Part shown: in pieces, positions 8,310 through 25,167 of the stretch | Layout of the letters: the number at the start of each line of letters is the position of its first letter | Numbering within the stretch: the first letter of the stretch is position 1 | DNA from: a virus | Length of the DNA stretch: 64,000 nt | Direction: 5' to 3' (one strand) | Virus record (IMG/VR): IMGVR_UViG_3300047546_001437 | Span: 1 to 64,000 of that record | Position numbers and translations under genes: made by a program | The notes under the pieces: generated by a model | Database searches by the model: none | Told to the model about the DNA's origin: nothing | Seen by the model: the letters and a program-made list of their open reading frames with translations, nothing else

Positions 8310-8319
8310 AGATTAAGCC

Positions 8320-10086: not shown

Positions 10087-11382
10087 ATGGCTGAAGACAT
10101 TGGTAATATTTACAAGACGAAGATCCCATCTTATGCTGAGGCAGCAGATATACAAGCAGCCCTAAAATTATTTCATTATGGAACAACAACAGTACCAACC
10201 ACAGAGGGTGAAATTCTTGCAGATTCTTTGGCTGGACATTTAAAAGCATTAGATACCAGACTTGACACAATAGAATCAGATCCAGCACGTTCAGACTTCC
10301 TGACTCAGGCTGAAATGGCAGTATCTTTTCCTACAAGAGTTAATGGATATATTTCAATGGATCCAAACTCAAATGGCGGATCTGTCGAAGAACTTTATGC
10401 ATCAGCAATTTATTCTAATGAACCACCAACAGTTGGATTGGTCAATGGTTTAATTTGGGTAGATAAAGATTCTCCTGCATTAGATACATATGTTTATGAC
10501 TCTACATCAACACCGTCTCCTTGGGTACGAATTAATGATATTAAAAAAATTGTTCAGTCTAAGGGAGACTTGTTGGTAGGAAGCACAAGCGCAGATGTTG
10601 ACAATCTGTCAGTTGGTGCTAATGGAACAGTTCTTACTGCAGATGACACACAAACACTTGGAGTTAAATGGCAAGCGGTATCAACATATTCGCAACCAAC
10701 TCTTGGATCAACAGCAATTCCTTCTGGATCAACAATAAGTAATGTTAATGGTTTAACAATTAACTCTACTACTATTCCAACATCTAAAACTTTAGTTGCT
10801 ACAGATTCTTATGCATACGTTATTCCATCTATGTCTGGTAACTCAGGAAAGTATTTGACAAATAATGGAGATACACCTTCATGGGCAACCCTTCCAACAT
10901 CTGGGGGAATGACATTATTGGCAAGCGGAACATTAACTGGTGCTAGTATTTCTATTGATTCGATTAGTGGGTCGTATCAAGATTTGCGATTGATTGTTCG
11001 TAACTTTAGACCTGCTACAGACGGCGCAGCGCTTAATGGAAGGGTAAATAACGATTCTTCTGCTATCTATGGTAATAGGACTGGAGTTGCTGAATCAGAT
11101 AACAGTTTTAGCAATACATCTTGGAATAATTTAAGTTATAATCAAGATAATGGATCAAGCACAAGTTTAATACGTTTAACATTTATTGATTATGCTAATA
11201 CTACAACATTAAAGGTTGCAGAACTTTATTCAGTAACAAATAATGAAACAACACCAACAAATATAAACTATACAACAGGTATTGCAATTGCCAGAACTAC
11301 AAGCGCTATTTCTTCAATACAACTATTTCCTAGTAGCGGTAATTTTACTTCTGGTAATTATTACCTTTATGGAGTCAAATAA
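10087..11382 (+). CDS. tail fibre-like protein
   Basis: KGDLLVG/VGANGTVLTAD and SGNSGKYLT fibre motifs; beta-rich C-terminus. Confidence 0.75.
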   Translation: MAEDIGNIYKTKIPSYAEAADIQAALKLFHYGTTTVPTTEGEILADSLAGHLKALDTRLDTIESDPARSDFLTQAEMAVSFPTRVNGYISMDPNSNGGSVEELYASAIYSNEPPTVGLVNGLIWVDKDSPALDTYVYDSTSTPSPWVRINDIKKIVQSKGDLLVGSTSADVDNLSVGANGTVLTADDTQTLGVKWQAVSTYSQPTLGSTAIPSGSTISNVNGLTINSTTIPTSKTLVATDSYAYVIPSMSGNSGKYLTNNGDTPSWATLPTSGGMTLLASGTLTGASISIDSISGSYQDLRLIVRNFRPATDGAALNGRVNNDSSAIYGNRTGVAESDNSFSNTSWNNLSYNQDNGSSTSLIRLTFIDYANTTTLKVAELYSVTNNETTPTNINYTTGIAIARTTSAISSIQLFPSSGNFTSGNYYLYGVK

Positions 11383-13619
11383 TGTCAACAGTTAGTTCAT
11401 CAAGCAAAGTAGCATACATGTATGACGCAGCGTCAGATACTTGGTATGCAGTTGCTGGTGTTGCTAACACAAATGTCCCATACTCTTGGACTCAAACACA
11501 TACATTTGGTTCTGTAGTTACAGCAAATGATGTTATTCGTGCTAAGGCTGGTGTAAATAGATTCCAAAATCCTGCTGCTAGAGATGCAGTTATAACATCT
11601 CCACAAGAAGGAACTGTATGCTATGTTGAACAAACAAATGGCGGAACAGATATTAAAGAGATTCAATGTTATGTAAATGGAAGTTGGAGAGGACTAACCA
11701 ATACCGCTTTATTTGTTGAAAAAGTTTCAAATCATACACTAAATATATCTGATCCAGGGAAAACAGTATTAATGAATTCAGGAACAAGTGTTAATGTTAC
11801 AGTTCCTTCAAATACTGATGTTCAATTTGCTATAGGACACACGATTAAAGTAGTTGCTATGGGTGCTGGTACTGTAAATTTTGTTGAAGGTTCTGGAGTA
11901 ACAATATTAAGTAAAAACTCTAGTAAAACAATTGCCTATAGATACGGAGAAGCAGAATTAAAGAAAACTGGAACAAACACTTGGCTACTTACTGGAGATT
12001 TAATTACTGGTGGAGGATTACTTTCTACTTTTAGTGTTACTTATGATTGTGATGGTGGAAGCAACTGTCCAGCAAACTCAAGTCACGCAAGCCCATATAC
12101 AATACCATCAACTATTCCTGTAAAATCTGGATACCAGTTCCTTGGTTATGAAGTATCAGCAGCACCTGGAGCACTTTGTGTATTCCCATCAGTAGTTCCA
12201 AATGCACAGCCAGGACATACTATTAATTGTGAGTCTAACCTAACCATTAAGGCAGTCTGGACACCATTACATACAGACCCACCATCAACTACCCAGGCAA
12301 CTACCCAGGCAACTACCCAGGCAACTACCCAGGCAACTACCCAGGCAACTACCCAGGCAACTACCCAGGCAACTACCCAGGCAACTACCCAGGGTACAAC
12401 AGAAGGAACTACACAGGGTACTACTCAAGGCACTACTGCATCAACAACCACCACTAGCGGTGGAGGACAGGTAGTTTGTGGCGACTGTGAGGCATATACT
12501 GTTGAACAGCCTACCTGTAATGGAGAAGATGTTTATGTTGGTATTTATACTGGAACAAGAAAACTATGTTCTGATGGATCATATCAGATTTGTACACAGC
12601 CAACACTTACTTCGTGGGGAGCATGCGTTGCAACAAATGTAAGTTCTTGTGGCGGTTCTGGTGGATCTGGATCTCCATGCATAGCAACAACAACCACAAC
12701 TGCTGGTCCGTACAACCCACCTACTGAGGCAACAACAACCACAACTGCTGGTCCGTACAACCCACCTACTGAGGCAACAACAACCACAACTAGTGGATAT
12801 GGGGCACCAACAAGTGCAACCACCACAACAACACAAAATTGTACGCCAGTTCAAACTACTAATGAAGTAAGAGTATGTAATGGAACTCCAACATCTGTTG
12901 TAATGTATGTAAACCCATGTACAGGTGCTGAATCGTGGACATGTCCAGAAACCACAACCACAACTGCGGCTCCTTACAACCCACCTGCTCAAGTAACTAC
13001 AACTACAACAGCAGCACCAGTAGCAACTACAACTACAACAGCAGCACCGACAATTACAACAACACAAAATTGTACGCCAGTTGCAACAAATAATGAGGTT
13101 AGAACCTGTAATGGTGTACCAACAAGTGTTGTAATTTATGTAAACCCATGTACAGGTGCAGAATCATGGAATTGTCCACCTGCTGCAACTACAACTGCTG
13201 CACCAGCAGTAACTACAACTGCTGCACCATATAATCCACCTGTTCAAGCAACAACAACTGCTGCACCAACAGTAACTACAACTGCTGCTTCAACTGTAAC
13301 TACAACAGCAGCATCAGGTGGCGGTGGATGTGTAAGTTATGCTGATTTTGCTTGTGGATGGGATTGGAGCGGTCAATATGACTGTGCTGGTAACTGTGTA
13401 GGAGTTAATCCACAACCTACAACAACAGAAGCATCATCTGGCTCAGGAGGCACTGGCTCAGGAGGCACTGGCTCAGGAGGCACTGGATCAGGAGGCACTG
13501 GCTCAGGCGGATCCAATACAACTGAGGCTACACAAGGTACAACTGCAGCAGATCCATGTTCACAATGCTCATCATGTGAATATTGCTATGCTGGGGCATG
13601 CTGGAGTGATGGCTGTTAG
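11382..13619 (+). CDS. fibre-associated mucin-like protein (Thr-rich repeats, Cys-rich modules)
   Basis: Fibre-tip-like N-terminal domain; (TTQA)8, ATTTTT-PYNPP repeats, duplicated QNCTPV...CNG...NPCTGAESWxC module, (GSGGT)4. Confidence 0.85.
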   Translation: MSTVSSSSKVAYMYDAASDTWYAVAGVANTNVPYSWTQTHTFGSVVTANDVIRAKAGVNRFQNPAARDAVITSPQEGTVCYVEQTNGGTDIKEIQCYVNGSWRGLTNTALFVEKVSNHTLNISDPGKTVLMNSGTSVNVTVPSNTDVQFAIGHTIKVVAMGAGTVNFVEGSGVTILSKNSSKTIAYRYGEAELKKTGTNTWLLTGDLITGGGLLSTFSVTYDCDGGSNCPANSSHASPYTIPSTIPVKSGYQFLGYEVSAAPGALCVFPSVVPNAQPGHTINCESNLTIKAVWTPLHTDPPSTTQATTQATTQATTQATTQATTQATTQATTQATTQGTTEGTTQGTTQGTTASTTTTSGGGQVVCGDCEAYTVEQPTCNGEDVYVGIYTGTRKLCSDGSYQICTQPTLTSWGACVATNVSSCGGSGGSGSPCIATTTTTAGPYNPPTEATTTTTAGPYNPPTEATTTTTSGYGAPTSATTTTTQNCTPVQTTNEVRVCNGTPTSVVMYVNPCTGAESWTCPETTTTTAAPYNPPAQVTTTTTAAPVATTTTTAAPTITTTQNCTPVATNNEVRTCNGVPTSVVIYVNPCTGAESWNCPPAATTTAAPAVTTTAAPYNPPVQATTTAAPTVTTTAASTVTTTAASGGGGCVSYADFACGWDWSGQYDCAGNCVGVNPQPTTTEASSGSGGTGSGGTGSGGTGSGGTGSGGSNTTEATQGTTAADPCSQCSSCEYCYAGACWSDGC
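12288..12395 (+). repeat. perfect 12-bp tandem repeat ACTACCCAGGCA x8 plus one variant
   Basis: Direct reading; encodes TTQA. Confidence 0.95.
13439..13510 (+). repeat. 15-bp tandem repeat encoding GSGGT
   Basis: TGGCTCAGGAGGCAC about x4. Confidence 0.9.
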
Positions 13620-13652
13620 TTGATATGATATACTTTATAAAAAGGAGAAAAA

Positions 13653-13859
13653 ATGTCTAAATTTAAATTTGCTATTGTTGTAGGAAATGATGTGGCTGGA
13701 ACTGTTGCTTTACAACAGGGCATAGATAGTACATTGGATGCTATTATTGCTGCCTATCAATCAGATCCAAAAATTATTCCAATCACAGATGATAATATTA
13801 ATTTTGGATGGACTTACGACGGCACTAACTTTTTCCCACCACTACCACCACAAGGATAA
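13653..13859 (+). CDS. small fibre-associated protein (GWTYDG motif)
   Basis: ORF track; AGGAG SD. Confidence 0.7.
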   Translation: MSKFKFAIVVGNDVAGTVALQQGIDSTLDAIIAAYQSDPKIIPITDDNINFGWTYDGTNFFPPLPPQG

Positions 13860-13862
13860 TAA

Positions 13863-14099
13863 ATGTCAGAGTTGTCTGCTTGGCAAAAATACAAGCAAAA
13901 TCTTGGCGAAACTCGTCCATGGGATTTGCTAAATCCAAATACACAATACGTTTCTGAGTATGAAAGTGACAAAAGATTTTCTATTTGTCAGGGGTGTCCA
14001 GAATTAATTGCACTTACAACTCAGTGCAAAAAATGTGGATGCATTATGAAATTAAAAACAAAACTAGAAAAGGCAACATGTCCATTAGGAAAATGGTAG
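13863..14099 (+). CDS. Cys-rich small protein (CKKCGC...CPLGKW)
   Basis: Paralog of 5987-6187. Confidence 0.8.
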   Translation: MSELSAWQKYKQNLGETRPWDLLNPNTQYVSEYESDKRFSICQGCPELIALTTQCKKCGCIMKLKTKLEKATCPLGKW

Positions 14100-14114
14100 A
14101 TATAATCAATAATT

Positions 14115-14996
14115 ATGGACAAAATATTTGTATCTATTGCATCTTATAGAGATCAAGAATTACTAGATACTGTTTTTTCTATTTTAAAACAAGCAAAAAA
14201 TCCAGAAAGACTATTTTTATCAATATTTTCTCAGGATGACAATCACCCAAATTTAGAACACTTGTTTGAGTTGTTTAACGTGAAACATTATGTTTATAAA
14301 AAAATACATTATAGCGATGCTCGTGGTGTTGGTTATGCTAGAGCAGAAACCCAAAAACCTTTAAATAATTCTTATAAATATTATTTACAAGTAGACAGTC
14401 ATACACAGTTTATTGAACACTGGGATGAAAAAATCGTAGATCATTACGAAAAGGCTATAGGGTATTGGGGAGACCTGATCTTTACAGCCTATCCAGGCAC
14501 CTATGAGTACACAGAAACAGGCAACCTAAAGTTTGCTACCGTTCTTGTTCCAACATGCCTTAGAATCCAACCTGCGACTGAAAACAGCCCAATCAGGTTT
14601 GAACCAAAATATAAGGACTATGTTGGCGGAGACATAGGTGAGTTTCATGGATATTTTTGTGCTGGTTTGGCTTTTGGATACTCTGAACATTTTTTAAAAG
14701 TTCCGTATGATGATCAAATTTATTTCAATGGAGAAGAGCAAACACTAGCAATAAGATTTTATTGTAATGACATTAAATTGGTTGCTCCACCATACAATTA
14801 TTGTTTTCATCATTATACTGGTAAAAAACGCATAAGACATTGGGAGCAAAGTGAAACCTGGAAAAAATATGATGAAATTGGTACAAAAAGATTAAATGAT
14901 TTTTACGAATATAAACTAGATGCCACATACGGTATTTCCAATAAAGAAAAGTACCATATGTGGCAATCTTGTTTTGTAACTCCTAGAGTTACTTAG
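14115..14996 (+). CDS. GT60 / Gnt1-like polypeptide GlcNAc transferase
   Basis: IFVSIASYRD, YYLQVDSH..F...WD, FCAGLAFG, VPYD..IYFNGEE motifs. Confidence 0.8.
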   Translation: MDKIFVSIASYRDQELLDTVFSILKQAKNPERLFLSIFSQDDNHPNLEHLFELFNVKHYVYKKIHYSDARGVGYARAETQKPLNNSYKYYLQVDSHTQFIEHWDEKIVDHYEKAIGYWGDLIFTAYPGTYEYTETGNLKFATVLVPTCLRIQPATENSPIRFEPKYKDYVGGDIGEFHGYFCAGLAFGYSEHFLKVPYDDQIYFNGEEQTLAIRFYCNDIKLVAPPYNYCFHHYTGKKRIRHWEQSETWKKYDEIGTKRLNDFYEYKLDATYGISNKEKYHMWQSCFVTPRVT

Positions 14997-15549
14997 GGAA
15001 TTTTTCCATCCACTGTTTTGTTCTTTGGGTTAGACCCTTCCAAGAACTCCAGTCCTGTCCTCCATTGGACATATGATATGCAATTTCTGCATTTATTACT
15101 GGATTAAATAAGTCTGCATTATGGTCTAACTCAAATTTGTCACGACGATCTAGACCAAGAACACCAAGCATATTAATCTGAAAGATACCATACGAACTGT
15201 CACCAGTTGAGATATTTCCGTTAAATGCTAGTGGACGACCATTACTTTCTTTTTTAGCAACAGCCCATGCCTCCTTTAGATTTTGACCTTCAAAGCCCAC
15301 TAACTTCAGTAGATTTTTTAGGTCTTTGTCAGATAGAGATGTAGCGTTTTGATATTTTTCTAACTGATCTTCTTTAGCCTTAGAAACGACTTTGGCCACT
15401 TCCGTGGCCTCTATTGTTTCTGTCAGCACGACACTAGTGCCGTCTAATCGGTTTTCAGAAGCATTAGCAGCGTTTGACCAAACGGCAAACATTGCCAATA
15501 TGCTGAGTGTACCAATGATTTGCCTGTTATTATTCATAAAGTTAATCAT
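14989..15549 (-). CDS. secreted lysozyme-like / SLT transglycosylase
   Basis: Signal peptide; catalytic KKES, SYGIFQIN, NP..NA, WSSW; AGGAGG SD before ATG 15549; TTGACA/TATACT promoter. Confidence 0.85.
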   Translation of the reverse strand: MINFMNNNRQIIGTLSILAMFAVWSNAANASENRLDGTSVVLTETIEATEVAKVVSKAKEDQLEKYQNATSLSDKDLKNLLKLVGFEGQNLKEAWAVAKKESNGRPLAFNGNISTGDSSYGIFQINMLGVLGLDRRDKFELDHNADLFNPVINAEIAYHMSNGGQDWSSWKGLTQRTKQWMEKFPK

Positions 15550-15661
15550 AGTTTCCTCCTTAGAAACGAATGACACCTTTTTAGGGGTGCCATGTTACTT
15601 CTTAGTATAACATAAATTTATTCTTATTGTCAAATACCTAAAAGTGGTATAATAAAACCAT

Positions 15662-16192
15662 ATGGCAACAGGAAATACAAATGATGGGGTATTTAATTTA
15701 CCCTTTCCAATAGCAGAAGATCCAGTAAATGTACACGGAGATATTGAGCAGTTAGCAGATAGATTACGTGTTGTTTTACCACCGCTTGGCATTTCTGCTT
15801 TTCAGATGAATGTTAAAAATGTGAGCGGTATCACATTAGAGGCAAGAACTCCCGTATATGTAACAACCTCAGTTAATGGTGTTACACATGTCACAAAAGC
15901 AACATCATCAACAACTCAACCTATTCTTGGATTATTAAAAGAGACATTAGATAATAATGAAGAAGGTTTGGTAATTGTTGCTGGTGTTTTAGATAATATT
16001 AATACAAGTGATTTATCTCCAGCAGGTGCTGTTGTTTATGTTGGTACAACTGGAGGATTAACAACTACTAGACCATCAACAGGTTCTGGGGCAGTTGGAA
16101 TTGTTGCAAATGTATCTCCAACAGCAGGAATTATAATTGTTGAGGCTAAAGGCAACGGTACCTGGGGAGCACTCAGAGACGGTTTAGCCTAA
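15662..16192 (+). CDS. putative virion protein
   Basis: ORF track; beta-rich; extended -10 upstream. Confidence 0.75.
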   Translation: MATGNTNDGVFNLPFPIAEDPVNVHGDIEQLADRLRVVLPPLGISAFQMNVKNVSGITLEARTPVYVTTSVNGVTHVTKATSSTTQPILGLLKETLDNNEEGLVIVAGVLDNINTSDLSPAGAVVYVGTTGGLTTTRPSTGSGAVGIVANVSPTAGIIIVEAKGNGTWGALRDGLA

Positions 16193-16212
16193 TTGTGGTA
16201 TAATCTAATATT

Positions 16213-16617
16213 ATGGCAACACTGCGTGGATCTGCTTCTTATTACGATGTAGGAAATAAACCTCCAACAGTTTCTTGGACGGTTGTGCGTGGTGATACAG
16301 CATCATTTAGAGTCTATGTAACAGATGACGAAAAACAACCCTTAAACATTCCTGACTGGACTATCGATATGAAAATTAAACGTCCAAACAATTCATCAGA
16401 TCTTGGGGTAATTACAGATAATGCAACATTAATACTATCATTAAATCCAGCAGCAGATGCAGATGACCTACCAGGCGAATTTACAGTGTCTTTATTATCA
16501 TCAGAATCACAAATACTTGAAACAGGAGATATCTTTGATATACAGTTGTCAAACGCAGCATATGTTTGGACAGTGGCTCAGGGTAAGATGACGATTCTTG
16601 AAGATGTAACAGATTAA
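16213..16617 (+). CDS. BppU-N-like adaptor protein
   Basis: VVRGDT...FDIQL...WTVAQG. Confidence 0.7.
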   Translation: MATLRGSASYYDVGNKPPTVSWTVVRGDTASFRVYVTDDEKQPLNIPDWTIDMKIKRPNNSSDLGVITDNATLILSLNPAADADDLPGEFTVSLLSSESQILETGDIFDIQLSNAAYVWTVAQGKMTILEDVTD

Positions 16618-16841
16618 TGGCATCAGCAAAAATATTAGATAAAAATAATAATAAACTCAAGGCAATCAATGCAGTATCTTATGCAATAATTAATGTAGCA
16701 AATGACACTAGAACAGTAAAAATTAACGAGGTACTGCCATTTAGAGTCAAGTTTACAAATATAGGAATTGAAGGATATAACAGGTTAAATCCAGCAGGTA
16801 TTGGAATCGCAGTAATTGGTTTCAATAACTATATTCTTTAA
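16617..16841 (+). CDS. hypothetical virion protein
   Basis: TAATG coupling. Confidence 0.7.
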   Translation: MASAKILDKNNNKLKAINAVSYAIINVANDTRTVKINEVLPFRVKFTNIGIEGYNRLNPAGIGIAVIGFNNYIL

Positions 16842-16871
16842 TAATACAAAAATGGAGGTTATAATATAGCC

Positions 16872-17318
16872 ATGGCAAAAATAACAATCCCTGCCGTTAA
16901 AGCAAAGTTCAGAACAGGTGATCGTCCTACACAGGAAGATTACGAAGATTTAATTGACACCCTTGCAGGTGCTGGAAATGATCTTGGCTCATCTGGTAAT
17001 AATGAAAACACAATCTCTGGCATTGAAAATGTTACAGTGATAGATAATTTTGACGCCACACAATGGCGTATGGTTAAGTACTTGGTCTCCATAGCAAAAA
17101 CAACTGCTGGAGATAACAAGTTTTATGCAACAGAGTTGACCATACTTGTAGACGGTACAAATGTAAACGTCTCTGAGTATGGCACTATAGACAATGATGG
17201 GAATATTGGCACCATTAGCGTCTCACGGACTGGAAATACCGTGGCTTTAACAGTCACTCCAGATCCTGCAATTAAGCCAGTCACAGTTCGTTATGCACGA
17301 ATTGGACTTAAGGCATAA
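16872..17318 (+). CDS. virion protein sharing its C-terminal domain with 17335-19116
   Basis: FRTGDRPT..DYEDLIDT; KYLV...TEL...EYG vs EFLV...SKV...EYA. Confidence 0.75.
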   Translation: MAKITIPAVKAKFRTGDRPTQEDYEDLIDTLAGAGNDLGSSGNNENTISGIENVTVIDNFDATQWRMVKYLVSIAKTTAGDNKFYATELTILVDGTNVNVSEYGTIDNDGNIGTISVSRTGNTVALTVTPDPAIKPVTVRYARIGLKA

Positions 17319-17334
17319 ATAAGGAGATAAAAAT

Positions 17335-19116
17335 ATGGCAACAGTAACAAAAGACTTCAAAGTAAAGAACGGTCTTATTGTTGAAGGCACAACAGGTACC
17401 ATCAATAACCACGACATTCTTACAAAGAAGACAGACGATCAAAATTATATCGTCAACTTAATTGGTGGAACAGCCACCTCAGCAAACGAAGCAAACAAGG
17501 TTGTAAAGCGTGATGGCTCAGGCAACTTTGCTGCAGGAGTAGTAACAGCAGACCTCGTTGGTGATGTAACTGGTAATGCAGACACAGCAACAACACTTGA
17601 AACATCAAGAAAGATTGAACTTTCTGGAGATGTTACTGGTGAAGTAATGTTTAATGGCTCACAAAATGTAGTCATTACAGCAACAATTGATGGATCTTTT
17701 GCAACAGATTCAGAAGTTGCTACAGCAAAGTCTGAAGCAATTTCAAGTGCAAATGATTATACAGATGATGAAATTGCAGCAGAAGTAACTGCTCGTAATT
17801 CAGCAATTGCTACAGCAAAGTCTGAAGCACTTTCAGATGCAGCAGCAGATGCTACCTCAAAGGCTAATGCAGCAGAAGCAGCAGCAATCGCTGCAGCAGC
17901 AGCAGATGCAACAACTAAGGCTAATGCTGCCGAGGTTGCTGCAAAGGCATACACAGATACTCGTGAGACTGCTATCACAAATGCATATCAGTCATATGCT
18001 AATCAAGCAGAACTTGATGCTATTTCATCAGCAAATGCTTATGCCGATGATAAGATTGCAGATCTTGTAGATTCTGCTCCAGCACTTCTTGATACACTCA
18101 ATGAGTTGGCTGCAGCAATTAACGATAATCCAAACTTCTCAACAACAATCGCTACACAGATTGGTGAAAAGGTTGCTAAGTCTGGAGATACAATGTCTGG
18201 CGACCTTAATATGGGAAGCAACAAGGTTACAAGCCTTGCAGCACCAACTGCTAATGGAGATGCAGCAAACAAACTTTATGTTGATAATGCAGAGCAATCA
18301 GCAAAAGATTATGCTGATGACCTTGCATCAAATTATGATGCAGCAGGTTCTGCAGCAGCAGCACAGGCAGCAGCAGAAACATTTGCTACAAATGCAGATT
18401 CAGCACTTTATAATACAGTAACAGGTGATATTGCAACTGCTGTTTCAACTGCATCATCAGATGCTACAAATAAAGCAAACACTGCACAATCAAATGCGGA
18501 AGCATTTGCTACAAATGCAATTAATGCACTTACAACTTCAGATATTGAAGAAGGTACAAACCAATACTTCACATCTAATCGTGCAAAGATTGCAGCAGCA
18601 CAATTAATCACAAGTGCAACAAAGACAAACATTCAAATCACAGGTGATGAGAATGGACTTACAATTACTGCAGAAAATGGTGTTGCAGACTCTACAACAT
18701 CAGATCTTGCAGAAGGATCAAACCTTTACTTCACAAATGCTCGTGCAGTTTCTGCTCTTGAAGCAGTAACTCCAGATTTCCCTGCAGTAGAGATTGCTTC
18801 CGTAGCAAAGCAGGTAGCGTCACAGGCAACTGTTACAACTGCAAGCACAAACACAGCAGTTTCATGGGCTAAGGCAGATTATCGTTCTGCTGAATTCCTT
18901 GTTAAGATTGCTAATGGAACTCATACAGAAGTTTCAAAGGTTATCCTAACACTTGATACATCAGATAATATCGCAGTTACAGAATATGCAATGGTTGGAA
19001 CAAACGGTTCTCTTGGATCAGTTTCAGCAGATGTTTCTGGAGCGGATGTTCGTCTTCGTGTAACAACTGATAACAACAACTCAACAGTTGCTGTTGTTGG
19101 AACACTTTTAAAGTAA
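17335..19116 (+). CDS. Ala-rich coiled-coil tail fibre
   Basis: KDFKVKNGL N-terminus, APALLDTLNELAAA, EGxNLYFT repeats. Confidence 0.85.
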   Translation: MATVTKDFKVKNGLIVEGTTGTINNHDILTKKTDDQNYIVNLIGGTATSANEANKVVKRDGSGNFAAGVVTADLVGDVTGNADTATTLETSRKIELSGDVTGEVMFNGSQNVVITATIDGSFATDSEVATAKSEAISSANDYTDDEIAAEVTARNSAIATAKSEALSDAAADATSKANAAEAAAIAAAAADATTKANAAEVAAKAYTDTRETAITNAYQSYANQAELDAISSANAYADDKIADLVDSAPALLDTLNELAAAINDNPNFSTTIATQIGEKVAKSGDTMSGDLNMGSNKVTSLAAPTANGDAANKLYVDNAEQSAKDYADDLASNYDAAGSAAAAQAAAETFATNADSALYNTVTGDIATAVSTASSDATNKANTAQSNAEAFATNAINALTTSDIEEGTNQYFTSNRAKIAAAQLITSATKTNIQITGDENGLTITAENGVADSTTSDLAEGSNLYFTNARAVSALEAVTPDFPAVEIASVAKQVASQATVTTASTNTAVSWAKADYRSAEFLVKIANGTHTEVSKVILTLDTSDNIAVTEYAMVGTNGSLGSVSADVSGADVRLRVTTDNNNSTVAVVGTLLK

Positions 19117-19145
19117 TAAAATAAAATAAGAGGGAGTGGTAGATC

Positions 19146-19601
19146 TTGGCAACAGTAGATAAAGATTTCAAGGTCAAAAACGGACTAGTCGTAAATAACG
19201 GCGGTAGTTTTGGAGGTTCAGTAGTAGTTGGAGCACCAACACTTGCTTCACATGCTGCTACCAAAGAATACGTAGATTCTGTAATAGGCGGAATGGCTGT
19301 TGGATCTACCGCTCCTTCTTCACCAGATAATGGTGATTTATGGTTTGATACATTAACAGAAAGAGTTAATGTATATTATGGTGGCTCTTGGCTAACCATA
19401 GCAACAATTGATGATACTTTGAATTTGCCTCAACATATTCACGATACAGCAATTGATGGAACTGGATTTATTGTTACAACCTTCCGTGAGGGTGGTAGTT
19501 TCAATAGCCCACAGGGCACAGGATTAGATGGTGGAGGACCAGCAAGTACTGTTTGGGCTCAAACATTTGACGGTGGCTCACCTGTGGATAACTTCAATTA
19601 A
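19146..19601 (+). CDS. short fibre-associated protein
   Basis: KDFKVKNGL N-terminus; APSSPDNGDLWFDT. Confidence 0.75.
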   Translation: MATVDKDFKVKNGLVVNNGGSFGGSVVVGAPTLASHAATKEYVDSVIGGMAVGSTAPSSPDNGDLWFDTLTERVNVYYGGSWLTIATIDDTLNLPQHIHDTAIDGTGFIVTTFREGGSFNSPQGTGLDGGGPASTVWAQTFDGGSPVDNFN

Positions 19602-19659
19602 AAACTGATGTTATAATAAGATATAAATTCATGGGTAGAACCCATAAGGAGAGATGTAA

Positions 19660-21777
19660 ATGGCAACAAGAATGCAACAGCGCAGAGGAACTGCAGCACA
19701 ATGGACTGCAGCAAATCCAATTTTAGCAGCAGGAGAAATCGGATATGAAACCGACACTGGTAAATTTAAAATTGGTGACGGTACTAACACTTGGTCTCTC
19801 CTCAAGTACTTCCTTAACTTAGAAGCATTAGACATAGATGCAGAGGGCTTTATTACAGATGATCAAAAAGGCGTTAATAACGGTGTAGCAACACTAGACT
19901 CAAATGGTCTTGTTCCAGTTATACAGATGCCAGATCAATATATTACAGATAAAATTATTACAAAAATTGGAGAGGTTGTAGGGGCTGCCCCATCAACACT
20001 AAATACCCTTAATGAAATTGCAGCAGCATTTGACAACGATCCAAACTATGCAGATACAATTTCTGCAGCATTAGATTTAAAGGCACCAAAGGCAAGCCCA
20101 GCAATTACTGGAACAGCAACATTTGTAAATGCAACATTTAGTGGAGATGTAGATGTTCAAACTATGCCATTAAATGATAGTTCAACAAGACCTGCTACAA
20201 CTGCATATGTTTCAGGAAGAATTCAAAATGTTAATACAGTTATATCAACATTAGCATCAGAAATAGACGCAAGTCTTGAAACGCTTGGAGCAAACGATGC
20301 ATCACAGGCAAGTTCTTTAGAAGCGCTTGATGTTCGTTTAGATTCAGCAGAGGCATCAATTACTGGAAATACAGCATCAATTGCAACAATTAATACAACT
20401 CTATCTGACCATACATCAGATATATCAGCATTAGATGTAAGAGTTGACGCAACTGAGTCTGATATTTCTACAATTAATGCAGATATCACATCTATTGAAT
20501 CAAATATTGATACAGTAGAAGCAAATATAACAGGAATTCAAAGCGATGTAACAACATTGCAAAATGATTTAAATGCTGCAGAAACAGATATCTCAGCATT
20601 GCAATCAGGAGCAACAACTACAACATCAACTATTTCAACAATACAAAATAATCTTACATCAATGAGTACTGAAATAGATGGAATTGATACAAGATTAACA
20701 GCAGCCGAAACTGATATTGATGCACTACAAACAAGTGCTACATCAGCAAGTGGACATGCTTCTGCAACAACAAATGTTCATGGAATTGCAAATACAGCAG
20801 ATCTTGCAACAAAGTCTTATGCAGATAATGCTAAGACTGAGGCAATTTCTACTTCAGCAACAGCAATTGCCTTAAAGGCAGATATTGCTTCTCCAACATT
20901 TACTGGAACAGTAGTTCTTCCAGCAACAACATCTATCGGAACAGTATCTGCAACAGAGATCGGATATGTTGATGGTGTAACATCAGCAATTCAAACTCAG
21001 TTAGATGCAAAGGCTCCTTTGGCATCACCAGCATTAACTGGTACACCAACTGCTCCTACCGCTACTGCTGGTACCAATACTACTCAGGTAGCAACTACAG
21101 CATTCGTTAAGACTGCCGTTGATAATGTAGTAGCAGCAGCACCTGGTGCACTAGATACTCTTAATGAGTTAGCAGCAGCACTTGGTAATGATGCAAACTT
21201 CTCAACAACATTAACAAACAATTTAGCAGCAAAGGCACCACTTGCTTCTCCAACATTTACTGGAACAGTAACATTGCCTTCATCTACAAGTATTGGAAAT
21301 GTTAGTTCAACAGAAATTGGCTATATTGATGGTGTAACGTCATCAATCCAGACACAATTAGATGCAAAAGCACCTTCTGCAAGTCCAACACTTACAGGAA
21401 CAGTTGCTCTTCCAGCAGCATCTTCTGTAACTTTAAATGGTACAGCACTCTCAACAACATTGGCTCTTAAGGCAGATAATGCAGCAACAATTAACACTAT
21501 GAGTGGTTCACACACAATTGTTTCTGCAGATGTTAGCAACGTACGTGAAATGAGCAATGGAGGAACAATTACAATTCCTTCAGACAACTCTTTCTGGCCA
21601 GTAGGAGCAACCATGGATGTTATTCAAACTGGTTCTTCACAAGTAACAATCGGAGCAGGATCTGGAGTAACATTAAATGCTACACCAGGACTTAAACTTC
21701 GTGCACAATGGTCTTCTGCAACAATTCTTAAGAGAGCAGCAAATACATTCGTTGCTCTTGGCGACTTGTCAGCATAA
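19660..21777 (+). CDS. tail fibre with major-tropism-determinant-like N-terminus
   Basis: QRRGTAAQW..NPILAAGEIGYETDTGKFKIGDG; coiled coil; KAPLASPxFTG repeats. Confidence 0.85.
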   Translation: MATRMQQRRGTAAQWTAANPILAAGEIGYETDTGKFKIGDGTNTWSLLKYFLNLEALDIDAEGFITDDQKGVNNGVATLDSNGLVPVIQMPDQYITDKIITKIGEVVGAAPSTLNTLNEIAAAFDNDPNYADTISAALDLKAPKASPAITGTATFVNATFSGDVDVQTMPLNDSSTRPATTAYVSGRIQNVNTVISTLASEIDASLETLGANDASQASSLEALDVRLDSAEASITGNTASIATINTTLSDHTSDISALDVRVDATESDISTINADITSIESNIDTVEANITGIQSDVTTLQNDLNAAETDISALQSGATTTTSTISTIQNNLTSMSTEIDGIDTRLTAAETDIDALQTSATSASGHASATTNVHGIANTADLATKSYADNAKTEAISTSATAIALKADIASPTFTGTVVLPATTSIGTVSATEIGYVDGVTSAIQTQLDAKAPLASPALTGTPTAPTATAGTNTTQVATTAFVKTAVDNVVAAAPGALDTLNELAAALGNDANFSTTLTNNLAAKAPLASPTFTGTVTLPSSTSIGNVSSTEIGYIDGVTSSIQTQLDAKAPSASPTLTGTVALPAASSVTLNGTALSTTLALKADNAATINTMSGSHTIVSADVSNVREMSNGGTITIPSDNSFWPVGATMDVIQTGSSQVTIGAGSGVTLNATPGLKLRAQWSSATILKRAANTFVALGDLSA

Positions 21778-21816: not shown

Positions 21817-22944
21817 ATGGCACTATCAAGAGGTAAAGGTGGAAGAAACATTAGAAAGGCGTCGGTGCCTTCCTTTGACCAAACATATACAAGAAGTTCA
21901 TACCAATCATATTTATCAAGCATTGGTCTGTTTTATTCAGAAAACTCTACCAACACCTCTGATAGTGGTCTAGATCAGCGCTGGAATTCACAAAATATTG
22001 CTCCAGGTACAGTAGTTCCATTTGGAACAACTATTGGTATTAATTACTACATTTATGTATACCCTGGTTTTAGCCATTATGGTGGTTTCTATCATGGCTT
22101 CTATCATGGATTTGGTCACTATGCTGGATTTACACACTATGCAGCATTTAGCCACTATGCTGGTTTCACACACTATGCAGCATTTGGACACTATGCAGCA
22201 TTCGGACACTATGCAGCATTCGGACACTATGCTGGATTCTATCATGGTTTCTATCACTCATTTGCACACTATTCTTCATTTGCACACTATTCTTCATTTG
22301 CACACTACGCAAACTTTAGCCACTACTATAGTGGATTCTCTCATGGTTATGGCGGATTCGGACATGGTTATGGCGGATTCGGACATGGTTATGGCGGATT
22401 CTATCATGGATTCGGACACGGTTATGGCGGATTCGGACACTACGGTGGCTTTGGTGGTGGCGGAGGTGCCAGAGGCTACTCAATTGGTGGAGAAACTGGT
22501 CTATTAAGTCCAACAGGAGTTATCTTGGCTGAAAACTTAAAGGTAGGAGACAAGTTATTAGCACTAGATATTTCAGAAATAGATATGGCTGGATTTAATC
22601 CTTCACAATGGTCTTCAGAAACAATATCTGGAAACGGTATAGTAGAGACAACAGTAGTATCAATTAATAGCAGAGTCTCAGATCGTGCTATTGTTATAAA
22701 TGGAGATATTTACTCTATACATCACTGGATCTTAGCAAGAAAAGATGGCGTTATTAGATTCGTAAGTTCTTCAGACATAGATACAACATATGAAGTTTAT
22801 AACTTCCAGACTCTAGACTGGGTCGAGGTTCAGTCTGCTGAAAGTATCGCTTACATTGATAGAGTTTATACAATTAACTGTGAGCCTTACGATATGTTCT
22901 TTACTAACTCAATGTTAGTATATGACCGAGTAGAAACTGACTAA
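21817..22944 (+). CDS. F-x-H / His-Tyr-Gly repeat protein with N-terminal PASTA-like and C-terminal Hint-like domains
   Basis: About 22 F-x-H units; SIGGET..AENLKVGDKLL...VYTINCEPYDMFFTNSMLVYD resembles a Hint fold. Confidence 0.8.
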   Translation: MALSRGKGGRNIRKASVPSFDQTYTRSSYQSYLSSIGLFYSENSTNTSDSGLDQRWNSQNIAPGTVVPFGTTIGINYYIYVYPGFSHYGGFYHGFYHGFGHYAGFTHYAAFSHYAGFTHYAAFGHYAAFGHYAAFGHYAGFYHGFYHSFAHYSSFAHYSSFAHYANFSHYYSGFSHGYGGFGHGYGGFGHGYGGFYHGFGHGYGGFGHYGGFGGGGGARGYSIGGETGLLSPTGVILAENLKVGDKLLALDISEIDMAGFNPSQWSSETISGNGIVETTVVSINSRVSDRAIVINGDIYSIHHWILARKDGVIRFVSSSDIDTTYEVYNFQTLDWVEVQSAESIAYIDRVYTINCEPYDMFFTNSMLVYDRVETD

Positions 22945-22945
22945 T

Positions 22946-23692
22946 TTGGCCAGACTACCCAATCACGATTACTATTCTGATGAGTGGGCAAACGAACCAT
23001 TCATAATACCTGATCAATTATTGGCATTACAGCAAAAAAGAATTGGCAGTGCAACACCATATAGCATAAGCCCTCAAATTGCAACATTTACTAGAAAGTA
23101 TAGTGAAAAAATACAAAATGCTCCAGATCACGATGCTGTAGAATTTGCAAAATATGAGGTAGATTGGCAAAAAGAATATCGTGAGCAAAAACATTTATTT
23201 GTTCCGCAAAATCGATGGGCACATGAAGTTGTTGAGCCACCAGTTCACATAAAAGATAATTTATACAAAATAAATGTATCTGCTGATGTTTATCCACATT
23301 TAGAACCTTTAGAGCATCAGTATGAAGAATCTGGAACAATCATACGTGAAAAAGAATATAGGTTTATTACTAGAACACTTTATAAGTATGTGGATGCTAC
23401 AAAAAATGTTGTTTTGGAAAAGGATTTAGATCCAGAGTGGTGTTCGAGAGTTTATGTTTGGAAAATTAGATGGCTACCACAAAAACCAGCAGTTTTAACA
23501 TTTTTTTCAAATGAGGATATGGTATACTGGAAGACACCAGAAACAATAGTTGATACAAAAGATATTGCAGAAGATGCACAAGGAGTGATAGACGTGCCAG
23601 TTATATTTAAAAAAGGACTTAAGCGCAGTATGCACTACATAAAGCATGATACAACAATACTATATATGAAGGTAGATTTTCATGAAGAATAA
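22946..23692 (+). CDS. hypothetical protein in the putative modification cluster
   Basis: ORF track; coupled to neighbours; weak resemblance to the C-termini of the next two genes. Confidence 0.75.
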   Translation: MARLPNHDYYSDEWANEPFIIPDQLLALQQKRIGSATPYSISPQIATFTRKYSEKIQNAPDHDAVEFAKYEVDWQKEYREQKHLFVPQNRWAHEVVEPPVHIKDNLYKINVSADVYPHLEPLEHQYEESGTIIREKEYRFITRTLYKYVDATKNVVLEKDLDPEWCSRVYVWKIRWLPQKPAVLTFFSNEDMVYWKTPETIVDTKDIAEDAQGVIDVPVIFKKGLKRSMHYIKHDTTILYMKVDFHEE

Positions 23693-24398
23693 AACAAACA
23701 TTATAACATTTATACCTAAAAATGAATTTGTTATAGAGTATACAGATAAACCAGAACCTATGATAAAAAATCTTCCTTCTTGGTGGAGAAAGGTTCATCC
23801 ATATGTTAATGGAGAAAAAACTTTACGTAATGGTCAATATAGTGAGACTGTAAAAAAGTGTCCTGGAATATTAGATTTGCTATCTACAGGATATTTATTA
23901 AAAACACCATGCGATATTTTTCTAGATGCAACTGGACCAAAACTAGATTGGCAAGTTCACCATGCACACAAAGAATCTGTTACAGTTCATTCTCAACCAC
24001 AAGTTGAAGGCTGGGATTTTGACAAAAATGATTGGATGGAAGATATATTTAGAATTCATCCAATGTGGGTAGTAGCAACAGAAAAAGGTTATAGTACTTT
24101 ATTTGTGCAGCCATCATTTCATACAAGCCTACCATTTGAAATAGTTCCAGCAATTATTGATACAGACATGTATCCTTCAGATGGACCATTCTCTATGAGA
24201 GTTAAAAGAGGCTTTAAAGGTGTCCTAGAGGCAGGAACTCCACTAGTTCAATGTATTCCTTATAGAAGAGAAAAGTGGGAAGCAAATATACTTGAAAAGC
24301 CAGATTTGAAAGTTTTAAACTCTATACCTTGGAAATTAAGGCATAAGTTTGGCGGGGCATACAAAAAACTTATGTGGGAAAAGAAGGTGTTTAATTAA
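23682..24398 (+). CDS. conserved phage hypothetical protein (TVKKCPG..D...GY family)
   Basis: Paralog of 24398-25159: LPxWW, KxC, GYxLxxPxD, LPF, GTPxxxxIPxxR. Confidence 0.8.
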   Translation: MKNKTNIITFIPKNEFVIEYTDKPEPMIKNLPSWWRKVHPYVNGEKTLRNGQYSETVKKCPGILDLLSTGYLLKTPCDIFLDATGPKLDWQVHHAHKESVTVHSQPQVEGWDFDKNDWMEDIFRIHPMWVVATEKGYSTLFVQPSFHTSLPFEIVPAIIDTDMYPSDGPFSMRVKRGFKGVLEAGTPLVQCIPYRREKWEANILEKPDLKVLNSIPWKLRHKFGGAYKKLMWEKKVFN

Positions 24399-25159
24399 TG
24401 GATAAATTTGAAGAAAGATATGCAAACCCAGAACCACTTGAAAATTTAAAGGTTCAGTTTTATACATCTAATGCATATGTAAATACAACTCCTGGTCCAG
24501 TGCCAGCAATTGACAATCTTCCAGAATGGTGGAAGGATCGTCCTATATATCAAAAAAATGATCAAATTGATAGACTATCTATCATGAATAATCGTGGTGC
24601 AGATGCTGCATCAATTAGTGTAAAGCATTGTATGCCATTTTTTGATGCAATAACTTGTGGATATCATTATTTATTGCCAACAGATGTTCATGTTGCAAAA
24701 ACAGAAGACCCAGATAGACCAGATATTTGGTGGGATGAAGATGCTCCAAGACCAATTGAGATGCGTGGTCATTTAGAGTTACCAGTTCCATCTGGATGCT
24801 ATCCAATTCATTTTGTTTGGGATATGAGATGGGGAACAAAGATGCCAGACGGATGGTCTGCAATGATCACACACCCTATAGACAGATATGATTTACCATT
24901 CTTTACTATGACAGCCATACAGGATTCTGACAGATGGTTTACTGGAAACGTTGTTACCTTCTTTTTAAGAAAAGATTTTGAAGGTACAATTAAAAAGGGT
25001 ACACCAATAATGTCAATTATTCCAATAAAAAGAGCAAACTGGAATATGGAAATAGACCATTCCCTACAAACTGAGGGTTTATGGGATCTTGAAAGAAAAA
25101 GAAATTACATTTATGGATTTTATAAAAAACATAGATGGATCAGAAAGAAATATAGATAG
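24398..25159 (+). CDS. conserved phage hypothetical protein, paralog of 23682-24398
   Basis: Same motif series. Confidence 0.8.
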   Translation: MDKFEERYANPEPLENLKVQFYTSNAYVNTTPGPVPAIDNLPEWWKDRPIYQKNDQIDRLSIMNNRGADAASISVKHCMPFFDAITCGYHYLLPTDVHVAKTEDPDRPDIWWDEDAPRPIEMRGHLELPVPSGCYPIHFVWDMRWGTKMPDGWSAMITHPIDRYDLPFFTMTAIQDSDRWFTGNVVTFFLRKDFEGTIKKGTPIMSIIPIKRANWNMEIDHSLQTEGLWDLERKRNYIYGFYKKHRWIRKKYR

Positions 25160-25167
25160 GATAAATA

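What the first reader, a model, noticed from the sequence alone, without database searches (positions are those of the whole stretch)
11700..21777. The same fibre-tip domain precedes both repeat/modifier cassettes
Seen: the segment before the mucin tract (VTVPSNTDVQFAIG..IKVVAMGAGTVNF..GSGVTI....AELKKTGTNTWLLTGDL) aligns by eye with the C-terminus of 19660-21777 (ITIPSDNSFWPVG..MDVIQTGSSQVTI.AGSGVTL....ATILKRAANTFVALGDL). In one cassette it is fused to the repeat region; in the other it ends the gene just upstream of the repeat gene. Inference: a generic docking domain for swappable, post-translationally modified low-complexity appendages, i.e. one modular system present twice.
Basis: partly seen in the sequence, partly recalled or inferred. 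Interest (0 to 1): 0.75.

Follow-up and report, generated by a model that had tools for sequence, protein, structure and literature searches.

The report
Fibre knob shared by two appendages
Two fibre proteins of an uncultured phage carry the same small knob domain, and in this group of phages that knob is almost always joined to a repetitive, probably sticky tail protein, either fused to it or encoded by the next gene.

Summary
ORF A (11382-13619, aa ~112-210) and the C-terminus of ORF B (19660-21777, aa ~605-705) share one ~95-aa domain (BLASTP E 2e-4; hhalign 98%, E 2.3e-13; same PHROG families). It has no Pfam model but is very common: 23,665 cluster representatives. It usually ends phage fibre proteins and also occurs in tandem arrays. 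Its predicted fold (pLDDT 91) best matches the trimeric C-terminal knob of the Pa223 capsid spike (Z 14.1), then XD1/gp9-type sandwiches.

In uncultured aquatic relatives, 70 of 77 knob-ended fibres are followed by a partner gene with a basic N-terminal tail, a PASTA or FN3 domain, aromatic low-complexity repeats and often a Hint cap. Only 16 of 110 control genes are. All 67 partner genes with an upstream ORF sit behind a knob.

ORF A exists both split (206-aa knob protein plus partner) and fused (knob plus FFPP, PT-rich or mucin-like tails). It shares a Cys module with partner proteins.

Docking on the knob has only weak model support (0.59, best control 0.02). In six named phages from other groups the knob has no such neighbour, so it is a general fibre head, not a dedicated socket.

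Other agents of this scan noted the same system in other genomes.

The parts
11382..13619 (+). ORF A, 745 aa: short fibre-type protein with an internal knob and a long appended tail (the fused form)
   Evidence: ORF list; PHROG hits at aa 44-210 only; relatives in split and fused forms
11382..11714 (+). ORF A N-terminal region (aa 1-111), shared with the 206-213-aa stand-alone knob proteins of relatives
   Evidence: phmmer to L162/L150/L186, E 1e-21 to 9e-29; poorly modelled as a monomer, pLDDT 35-65
11715..12011 (+). Knob domain, copy A (aa 112-210)
   Evidence: pLDDT 90-97 in the ORF A model
12021..12266 (+). Post-knob beta domain (aa 214-295), weakly like the Listeria-Bacteroides repeat
   Evidence: PF09479 E 5.4e-5, 23.7 bits, below the 27-bit cut-off; pLDDT 78-89
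12288..12455 (+). T-rich TTQA-type repeat tract (aa 303-358)
   Evidence: read from the translation
12834..13181 (+). Two ~39-aa Cys modules (aa 485-523 and 562-600) separated by T/P-rich linkers
   Evidence: homologous module inside the Hint-capped partner protein of L125, E 1.9e-8 among 8,611 ORFs
13557..13616 (+). Cys-rich C-terminal tail (aa 726-745)
   Evidence: by eye, similar Cys-rich ends on the fused relative L232 and on cap-less partners L006 and L009
13863..14099 (+). Small Cys-rich protein, DUF6171-like
   Evidence: PF19668 E 1.1e-5, 26.2 bits, just under the 27-bit cut-off; homologues downstream of knob fibres in 10 of 55 loci
14115..14996 (+). Glycosyltransferase of the GlcNAc family, candidate modifier of the T-rich tail
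   Evidence: PF11397 E 1.6e-36; phrog_24687 E 3e-29; the substrate is inferred only
19660..21777 (+). ORF B, 705 aa: long fibre with Mtd_N start (aa 6-42), coiled-coil shaft and terminal knob
   Evidence: PF18454 E 3e-15; tail-fibre PHROGs; 666 homologues of its C-terminal domain among 1,207 candidates
21472..21774 (+). Knob domain, copy B (aa 605-705), extreme C-terminus
21817..22944 (+). Partner protein, 375 aa: basic N-tail plus PASTA-like head (aa 1-80), F-x-H aromatic repeats (aa 84-217, 22 F-x-H units), Hint/BIL-like cap from Ser222
   Evidence: PASTA reaches the Pfam cut-off in homologues L093 and L162 but not in the window's copy; Hint profile against PDB 2lwy_A, E 4e-12
22946..25830 (+). 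Four co-directional genes kept with the partner in close relatives: an unknown, two phrog_7084 paralogues, and a 2OG-Fe(II)-oxygenase-like lead
   Evidence: synteny in L072-L092; phrog_7084 E 5e-40 and 5e-27; Atlas lead PF13759 at score 0.96, a lead only; no Pfam hit

Best explanation
The shared domain is a ~95-aa beta-sandwich knob that normally forms the trimeric distal head of phage fibres. This phage has two virion fibres with it, a short one (ORF A) and a long one (ORF B). In this lineage of uncultured aquatic phages each knob carries a low-complexity appendage. That appendage is a flexible repeat tract that is aromatic, Pro-rich or T-rich. It may hold small Cys-knot modules, and it ends in a self-processing Hint domain, a Cys-rich tail or nothing. 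The appendage is either fused to the C-terminus of the knob (ORF A here) or encoded by the next gene (21817-22944 behind ORF B). Shown: the homology, the fold class, the terminal position, the near-constant gene pairing, the split and fused forms, and the shared modules. Inferred: that the separately encoded partner docks on the knob trimer through its basic N-terminal tail and PASTA or FN3 head; that the appendage extends the fibre tip as an adhesive or host-surface-contacting tail; that the Hint cap cuts itself off; and that neighbouring enzymes decorate the repeats.
For: Homology.
Fold: the model has pLDDT 90.9. The best solved match is the C-terminal knob of the homotrimeric Pa223 capsid spike gp52 (Foldseek E 9.7e-8, TM 0.72; VIA Z 14.1, rmsd 3.6, 103 aligned; passages of bioRxiv 10.1101/2025.06.11.659172 read).
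Terminal position: 121 of 144 top representatives end within 10 aa of the last knob. Of 184 knob ORFs in the fetched loci, 181 are C-terminal.
Pairing: in the knob-anchored sample, 77 fibres had at least 900 nt downstream. Of these, 70 show a partner hallmark and 51 show an N-terminal motif plus a repeat or Hint. Downstream of 110 other genes the counts are 16 and 4. In the partner-anchored sample, 67 of 67 upstream ORFs end in the knob.
Fusion versus split: L162, L150 and L186 encode ORF A's N-terminus plus knob as a 206-213-aa protein, followed by a PASTA + FGFTP-repeat + Cys1-Hint gene. P0268-P0270 (knob then FFPP repeats), P0271 (knob then a T-rich tail with Cys modules) and L232 (knob then PT repeats and a Cys tail) are fused. 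In those five relatives the repeat tract starts within a few residues of the knob. Pfam found no PASTA or FN3 in the two I scanned, P0270 and P0271. That is as expected if these heads are needed only for non-covalent mounting.
Shared parts: ORF A's Cys module matches a module in the L125 partner (E 1.9e-8).
Two pairs per genome in G001 and G002.
Complex model of the knob x3 with partner residues 1-90: weak support, score 0.59 (runs 0.68, 0.59, 0.59), best of 3 controls 0.02. The mark was reached by 58 of 80 solved complexes and 2 of 110 mismatched pairs. At 0.60 or under it was reached by only 7 of those 80 and by both mismatches that passed. Runs agree in at least 72% of contacts and partner pLDDT is at least 82. 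My own alignments were used, and a 3+1 job is unlike the calibration.
Against: The complex pass is in the band that the tool calls more often wrong than right unless the guess was likely beforehand.
The gp10-family matches lie on XD1 (TSP4 48-182, gp10 48-150, gp9 66-165). The TSP4 paper describes XD1 as a spacer and names XD2 and XD3 as the docking modules (PMC8825819, abstract and passages).
Outside this clade the knob has no such partner. In Gordonia phage Sapo, a PinkBerry-associated phage, PhiJL001, Polaribacter P12002S, DFL12phi1 and Actinomycetia phage DSL-LC01, none of the 7 genes that follow is low-complexity (minimum 40-aa entropy 3.09-3.40 bits) or Hint-like.
7 of 77 knob fibres in the sample lack any hallmark.
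The 80 loci are the best 80 of at least 593, all from one knob subfamily, and some are near-duplicates (56 distinct pairs). The enrichment is therefore not phylogenetically independent.
There is no evidence that the partner is in the virion beyond a PHROG label (phrog_38766, E 3e-6).
The window's own partner head misses the Pfam PASTA threshold.
Confidence: 0.55

Rival explanations
1. The knob is simply the common trimerising or receptor-binding head of fibres in this lineage. The repeat gene is a conserved neighbour in the same structural module, mounted elsewhere on the virion or not at all. The fused forms are gene fusions tolerated because the knob's C-terminus is exposed.
For: The knob is generic: 23,665 cluster representatives, tandem arrays of up to 22 copies, and no repeat partner in six named phages. 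The XD1-type fold is described as a spacer. The same fold occurs in a glycan-binding domain of CpaA. CpaA (6o38, Z 8.6) and StcE (4dny, Z 7.0) are among my matches, so the knob itself could bind host sugars. Docking has only a weak model pass.
Against: The pairing is nearly complete in both directions (67/67 and 70/77). It holds for two paralogous fibres in one genome. It holds across three unrelated partner head types. Repeated independent fusions place the repeat directly on the knob.
Confidence: 0.28
2. The downstream protein and the fused tail act as an assembly chaperone for the fibre head and are then removed. They would resemble tail-fibre assembly proteins or self-cleaving C-terminal intramolecular chaperones, and would not be functional appendages.
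For: The gene sits immediately after the fibre gene, as fibre chaperone genes do (general knowledge, recalled). The Hint cap is a self-cleaving type of domain. Some fused relatives end in a short tail that I recall as resembling a chaperone cleavage site.
Against: Most of the partner is low-complexity repeat plus PASTA or FN3 binding-type domains, which is not a chaperone-like make-up. The Hint cap sits at the far end of the partner, so cleavage would release the cap and not free the fibre. Pfam did not confirm a chaperone domain in P0270. ORF A has no protease-type domain at all.
Confidence: 0.1
3. The resemblance of the two segments is chance or compositional.
For: Pairwise identity is only 29% and the single BLASTP E-value is 2e-4.
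Against: hhalign E 2.3e-13. Both segments hit the same six PHROG families at the same profile positions. Both hit the same place in Gordonia phage Sapo gene 26. Both are modelled as the same fold at pLDDT above 90.
Confidence: 0.01

Closest known systems
[quoted passage not shown]
   Same: Best structural match: Z 14.1, 103 residues aligned, model 9-114 to chain 187-292; Foldseek E 9.7e-8. It is likewise the terminal head of a trimeric fibre-like protein. The authors suggest a host-adsorption role (passages read).
   Different: 13% identity and no sequence-level match to any PDB chain. It sits on a capsid spike with a triple beta-helix shaft. No appended or neighbouring repeat protein is described in the passages I read.
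XD1 domain of T4 gp10, the gp9 middle domain, and CBA120 TSP4 (PDB 5iv5, 1qex, 7rej)
   Same: Same beta-sandwich class: Z 8.0-9.1 on TSP4 48-182, gp10 48-150 and gp9 66-165. These are trimeric modules of branched receptor-binding complexes (PMC8825819, abstract and passages).
   Different: Z is only middling. XD1 lies near the N-terminus and is described as a spacer, with XD2 and XD3 doing the docking. Here the domain is terminal or in tandem arrays.
PHROG families 8780 (minor tail protein), 21510, 18179, 21978, 29238, 33012; Gordonia phage minor tail proteins
   Same: Both window copies match the last ~95 positions of these profiles. tblastn finds the domain in 232 and 258 phage records, 219 and 222 of them Gordonia phages, under annotated minor tail proteins.
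   Different: These families carry no description of the domain and Pfam has no model for it. In Gordonia phage Sapo the next gene is an ordinary 204-aa protein.
Fibre plus separately encoded tip protein, such as T-even gp37 with gp38 or Mu-type fibre with Tfa (recalled, not tested here)
   Same: A gene directly behind the fibre gene whose product is proposed to sit on the fibre tip, with swappable modules.
   Different: No sequence or fold relation was tested. The partner here is a PASTA or FN3 head, a low-complexity repeat and a Hint cap, which I know from none of those systems.
Bacterial intein-like (BIL) domains, PDB 2lwy (relates to the partner's cap, not the knob)
   Same: A profile of 18 partner caps hits 2lwy_A at E 4e-12 and the gp41-1 intein at 3.5e-9. 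Position 1 is Cys or Ser. Many Cys1 forms end in His-Asn.
   Different: The window's copy starts with Ser and ends Tyr-Asp. It has no C-extein and sits at the end of a phage fibre-region protein. Cleavage is untested.

Membership tests
Phage fibre C-terminal knob (PHROG 8780/21510/18179 type; no Pfam model) | Significant profile match over the whole ~95-aa module | tested here: met
   Copy A 1e-19, copy B 6e-13 to phrog_8780 positions 653/664-755 of 755; hhalign A against the B family, E 2.3e-13
Phage fibre C-terminal knob (PHROG 8780/21510/18179 type; no Pfam model) | Lies at the extreme C-terminus of the protein | tested here: met
   Met for ORF B (ends at aa 705 of 705). Not met for ORF A (aa 112-210 of 745). 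ORF A is the exception: the 3 internal cases among 184 knob ORFs in the fetched loci are all ORF A itself
XD1 / gp9-middle-domain type trimeric beta-sandwich | Fold match covering most of the domain | tested here: met
   Z 8.0-9.9, 84-104 residues aligned; middling scores, so this shows fold class rather than proven kinship
XD1 / gp9-middle-domain type trimeric beta-sandwich | Packs as a homotrimer around the fibre axis | not tested
   Three copies were modelled only together with the partner, and no interface was reported
XD2/XD3 docking jellyrolls of gp10-like proteins | Fold match to the XD2 or XD3 ranges | tested here: inconclusive
   The aligned ranges fall on XD1 (TSP4 48-182; XD1 is 80-178 according to PMC8825819); XD2 and XD3 are not among the listed ranges
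Pa223 gp52-type terminal knob (called a TNF fold by its authors) | Fold match standing clear of other hits | tested here: met
   Z 14.1 against the next best 9.9; Foldseek E 9.7e-8 against the next best 1.4e-3
Hint / bacterial intein-like domain (partner cap) | Profile match to solved Hint domains | tested here: met
   2lwy_A 4e-12, 6qaz_A 3.5e-9; Pfam Hint_2 and Intein_splicing match only below threshold
Hint / bacterial intein-like domain (partner cap) | Cys, Ser or Thr nucleophile at position 1 | tested here: met
   Ser222 in the window; Cys or Ser in the aligned column of all 18 homologues
Hint / bacterial intein-like domain (partner cap) | C-terminal His-Asn | tested here: not met
   The window's cap ends Tyr-Asp. 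His-Asn is present in Cys1 relatives such as L150, L155, L162 and L200
Hint / bacterial intein-like domain (partner cap) | Autocleavage | not testable with these tools
   Needs expression and intact-mass measurement
PASTA domain (partner head) | Pfam PF03793 above the gathering score | tested here: not met
   The window's copy has no Pfam family at E <= 0.5. Homologues L093 (32.4 bits) and L162 (30.3 bits) pass the 23.2-bit cut-off, and the window's head aligns with them
GlcNAc-type glycosyltransferase PF11397 (gene 14115-14996) | Pfam match above the gathering score | tested here: met
   127 bits against a cut-off of 21, E 1.6e-36

The most novel reading that the evidence does not exclude
A very large, undescribed plug-and-socket system of aquatic phages. 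A universal fibre-end knob serves as the socket. Interchangeable appendage proteins serve as the plug: a short basic N-terminal tail with a PASTA or FN3 head, followed by aromatic or proline repeats that mature by Hint self-cleavage and perhaps enzymatic decoration. Evolution has repeatedly switched between the covalent (fused) and non-covalent (split) versions. This would be a general way for phages to exchange what hangs on their fibre tips.
Probability: 0.4. Interest if true: 0.8.

Novelty: new variant of a known kind. Interest (0 to 1): 0.64.

Why it matters
The knob is one of the commoner phage fibre modules (23,665 cluster representatives at 50% identity), yet it has no Pfam model and no described function. 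If it mounts interchangeable low-complexity tails on fibre tips, this would add a new layer to phage host recognition, alongside branched tailspike complexes and tip adhesins. It would give a context for the many unexplained repeat-Hint proteins and neighbouring oxygenase and glycosyltransferase genes in lake and marine phage genomes. It would also offer a natural handle for mounting cargo on fibres. The split and fused natural variants make the idea directly testable with a handful of recombinant proteins.

Tried and rejected
- **Megablast.** A search of 11382-21777 against 50,697 phage records found nothing.
- **Pfam on the knob.** Neither knob segment matched any family at E <= 1.
- **PDB by sequence.** A profile search with the knob alignment A2 gave 0 hits at E <= 1, so the fold had to be approached through a model.
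- **First locus scans.** The search for related loci with the two-sequence alignment A1 returned one locus, the window's own phage. With the 54-sequence A2 it failed for lack of a conserved stretch. The narrower A3 worked.
- **Missed knobs in the first count.** My first count of knobs upstream of partner genes was 49 of 67. This was an artefact of HMMER's default filters. The 18 misses carry the knob at E 1e-9 to 1e-13 with --max, and the corrected count is 67 of 67.
- **Gene calling in repeats.** My first greedy gene calling put alternative-frame ORFs inside repeats as the next gene. I replaced it with a three-frame scan.
- **The RKxVP motif.** I considered that it might be a special docking peptide. 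It is the first strand of the PASTA domain, so only the basic tail ahead of it remains a candidate.
- **ORF A model.** The monomer model of ORF A residues 1-300 left residues 1-110 at pLDDT 35-65. I did not search folds with it.
- **Possible chaperone tail.** P0268-P0270 end in a short tail that I recalled as resembling a self-cleaving chaperone site. Pfam did not confirm it, so I dropped it as evidence.
- **Literature.** Hint domain + tail fiber + phage + PASTA: 34 papers held at least 3 of the 4 terms and 12 were listed. None was relevant by title; I checked one, phiCbK, which concerns terminase inteins. Bacterial intein-like + phage + structural protein: 0 papers. BIL domain + bacteriophage: 4 papers; passages of one review read, the other three judged by title and abstract start. 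I found no description of the knob or of the knob-partner pairing. Subscription journals are outside the library, and I requested no supplementary files.

Full report
**What the window is.** The window is the first 64 kb of a 72,666-bp IMG/VR virus record that CheckV rates 67% complete. It encodes a portal, a protease, a major capsid protein and a 2,695-aa tape-measure protein, so it is a long-tailed, siphovirus-like phage. Megablast found no close relative among 50,697 deposited phage records. Fibre-type genes fill 7.4-22 kb.

**The observation.**
- ORF A (11382-13619, 745 aa) and ORF B (19660-21777, 705 aa) share one ~95-aa segment.
- BLASTP aligns A 118-207 with B 618-703 at 29% identity, E 2e-4.
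- hhalign of the A segment against a 12-sequence profile of the B-type domain gives 98% probability, E 2.3e-13 over 94 columns.
- Each segment alone matches the last ~95 positions of the same PHROG families: 8780, 21510, 18179, 21978, 29238 and 33012.
- The record holds exactly two copies.
In ORF A the domain is internal. In ORF B it is terminal, and the repeat gene starts 40 nt later.

**What the domain is.**
- Pfam has no model for it, and no PDB chain matches it by sequence.
- It is nevertheless very common. A two-sequence profile finds 23,665 cluster representatives at E <= 1e-3 among 1.84 billion, and 10,404 at E <= 1e-10.
- The 150 best-scoring representatives are biased towards multi-copy proteins. 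Of the 144 that were new in that search, 121 end within 10 aa of the last copy. Copy number runs from 1 (29 proteins) and 2 (81 proteins) up to 22.
- The 23 proteins with something after the last copy carry mostly collagen-like or glycine-rich tails, judged by eye.
- tblastn finds the domain in 232 and 258 deposited phage records. Most are Gordonia phage minor tail proteins. Others are phages of Ruegeria, Dinoroseobacter, Polaribacter, Brevundimonas and more.
- An AlphaFold2 model of the ORF B copy is confident (pLDDT 90.9).
- Its best solved match is the C-terminal knob of the homotrimeric Pa223 capsid spike gp52: Foldseek E 9.7e-8, and VIA Z 14.1 over 103 residues. In the passages I read, the authors call that knob a TNF fold and suggest an adsorption role.
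- The next matches, at Z 8-10, fall on the XD1 range of CBA120 TSP4 and T4 gp10 and on the middle domain of T4 gp9.
- The TSP4 paper describes XD1 as a spacer and names XD2 and XD3 as the partner-binding modules. It also notes the same fold in a glycan-binding domain of CpaA (PMC8825819, abstract and passages).

The domain is therefore a general trimer-type fibre head or bead. Its fold class does not in itself argue for docking.

**What lies next to it in relatives.** I fetched three sets of IMG/VR loci.
- *Partner-anchored set* (71 loci). In 67 of the 67 loci that have an upstream ORF, that ORF is a fibre ending in the knob. Three loci are at a contig edge, and one has a truncated partner. 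A first count of 49 of 67 was a filter artefact.
- *Knob-anchored set* (best 80 of at least 593 confirmed loci). It holds 87 knob-ended fibres, 77 of them with at least 900 nt downstream.
  - 70 of the 77 show at least one partner hallmark downstream.
  - 51 show an N-terminal motif plus a repeat or a Hint domain.
  - The same scan behind 110 other genes of at least 300 aa gives 16 and 4.
  - At gene level, 21 of 434 control genes are low-complexity and 2 carry a Hint domain.
- *ORF B-anchored set* (68 loci). It gave the first, more distant knob-ended fibres (L006-L045) whose next gene is a repeat protein.
- *The partners.* They start with a short basic tail and then fall into three classes. 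These are a PASTA head (Pfam-significant in L093 and L162), FN3 domains, and a third class with a KAKPTI-type start. A repeat tract follows (FFPP, FFSPPxFFGPP, FGFTP, FGAFGA, NPGF, and F-x-H in the window). The protein ends in a Hint domain, a Cys-rich tail or nothing.
- *The cap.* A profile of 18 caps hits the bacterial intein-like domain 2lwy_A at E 4e-12. Position 1 is Cys or Ser, and many Cys forms end His-Asn.
- *Caveat.* These loci are related and partly redundant (56 distinct pairs), so the enrichment is not a set of independent events.

**Fused and split forms.**
- *Split form.* ORF A's N-terminus plus knob exists as a stand-alone 206-213-aa protein in L162, L150 and L186. Each is followed at once by a PASTA + FGFTP-repeat + Cys1-Hint gene.
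- *Fused forms.* The closest database relatives of ORF A residues 1-300 are fused (21 hits among 7,243 candidates). P0268-P0270 run from the knob straight into FFPP repeats. P0271 runs into a T-rich tail with Cys modules. The 578-aa L232 runs into PT repeats, Cys modules and a Cys-rich end.
- *Missing heads.* Pfam finds no PASTA or FN3 in the two fused forms scanned, P0270 and P0271.
- *Shared module.* ORF A's own ~39-aa Cys module recurs in the Hint-capped partner of L125 (E 1.9e-8).
- *Copies per genome.* Relatives G001 and G002 have two knob+partner pairs about 10 kb apart, the same spacing as in the window. G003 has a fused short form plus a split long form, like the window. G004 (96% complete) and G005 (71% complete) have one knob each.

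**Docking.** The tool's verdict was weak support.
- The score was 0.59 (runs 0.68, 0.59, 0.59). The best of 3 controls scored 0.02.
- The mark was reached by 58 of 80 solved complexes and 2 of 110 mismatched pairs. At 0.60 or under it was reached by only 7 of those 80 and by both mismatches that passed.
- The runs agree in at least 72% of contacts, and partner pLDDT is at least 82.
- My own alignments were used, and a 3+1 job is unlike the calibration.

I treat docking as plausible, not shown.

**Limits of the idea.**
- In six named phages from other groups the knob is terminal. The next genes (7 of 7) are neither low-complexity nor Hint-like.
- 7 of 77 fibres in the sample lack any hallmark.
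- As for modifiers, the PF11397 transferase beside ORF A is a firm call. The genes behind the partner have no Pfam family. An Atlas lead points to a 2OG-Fe(II) oxygenase for 25168-25830, and a weaker one to DUF6065 for the phrog_7084 pair.
- Single-sequence homologues of any of these candidate modifier genes follow the knob in 30 of 55 loci with at least 4 kb downstream.
- No chemistry is shown anywhere.

**Verdict.** The shared domain is real. It is a general fibre-end knob. In this clade of phages it is tied to low-complexity appendage proteins, in fused or split form, and the window shows both. The reading of one modular system present twice holds. The reading of a generic docking domain for modified appendages is too narrow for the domain family and is unproven for the mechanism.

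**Earlier notes of this scan.** I looked these up after my own analysis. They report the same fibre plus repeat-Hint pairing, often in two copies, in other uncultured lake phages. Some of those agents guess that the hosts are actinobacteria, which I did not test. The system is thus a recurrent find of this scan on other DNA. New here are:
- the identity, fold and census of the knob;
- the fused and split series;
- the controls on the gene-neighbour survey;
- the docking test.

Noticed in passing
related loci L167, L177, L187, L205, L213, L214 (about 40-70 nt after the fibre stop): Six of nine distinct KAKPTI-class partner genes change frame at one conserved site, GCN-CGG-A. Reading on in the +1 frame (GGA) restores the sequence that three in-frame relatives encode. 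CGG is 1 of 9,763 codons in the long ORFs of these loci. This looks like programmed +1 frameshifting at a rare codon; the parallel to classic rare-codon +1 sites is recalled, not tested.
   Followed up: partly
proteins P0121 (3,206 aa) and P0122 (2,401 aa): The knob occurs as tandem arrays of 22 and 16 copies. Collagen-like G-x-T-G-S repeats and a small beta domain follow. The domain can therefore also build fibre shafts and is not only a tip.
   Followed up: partly
window 13557-13616; L232 end; partner ends in L006 and L009: Short Cys-rich C-terminal tails end both fused knob proteins and cap-less partner proteins. They may be an alternative cap to the Hint domain. Similarity was judged by eye only.
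   Followed up: no
proteins P0268-P0270: Fused FFPP relatives of ORF A end in a short SDYRLKNDIE-type tail. I recall this as resembling the self-cleavage site of fibre intramolecular chaperones. Pfam did not confirm it.
   Followed up: partly
window 14989-15576 (- strand): A lysozyme-like SLT_3 protein (PF18896, E 6e-15) with a hydrophobic N-terminus lies on the opposite strand between the two fibre cassettes.
   Followed up: no
window 7452-9036: Two collagen-like fibre proteins (G-x-y repeats; tail-fibre PHROGs) lie upstream of the cassettes. The phage therefore carries at least four kinds of fibre-type protein.
   Followed up: no
related loci L116-L138: HMMER's default filters missed the knob in 18 full-length fibres, although it scores E 1e-9 to 1e-13 with --max. 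Counts of this domain made with default settings will be too low.
   Followed up: yes
window 25168-25830 and 23682-25159: Atlas leads point to a PF13759-type 2OG-Fe(II) oxygenase (score 0.96) for the first gene and, more weakly, to DUF6065 (12% of members) for the two phrog_7084 paralogues. Pfam itself gives nothing.
   Followed up: partly
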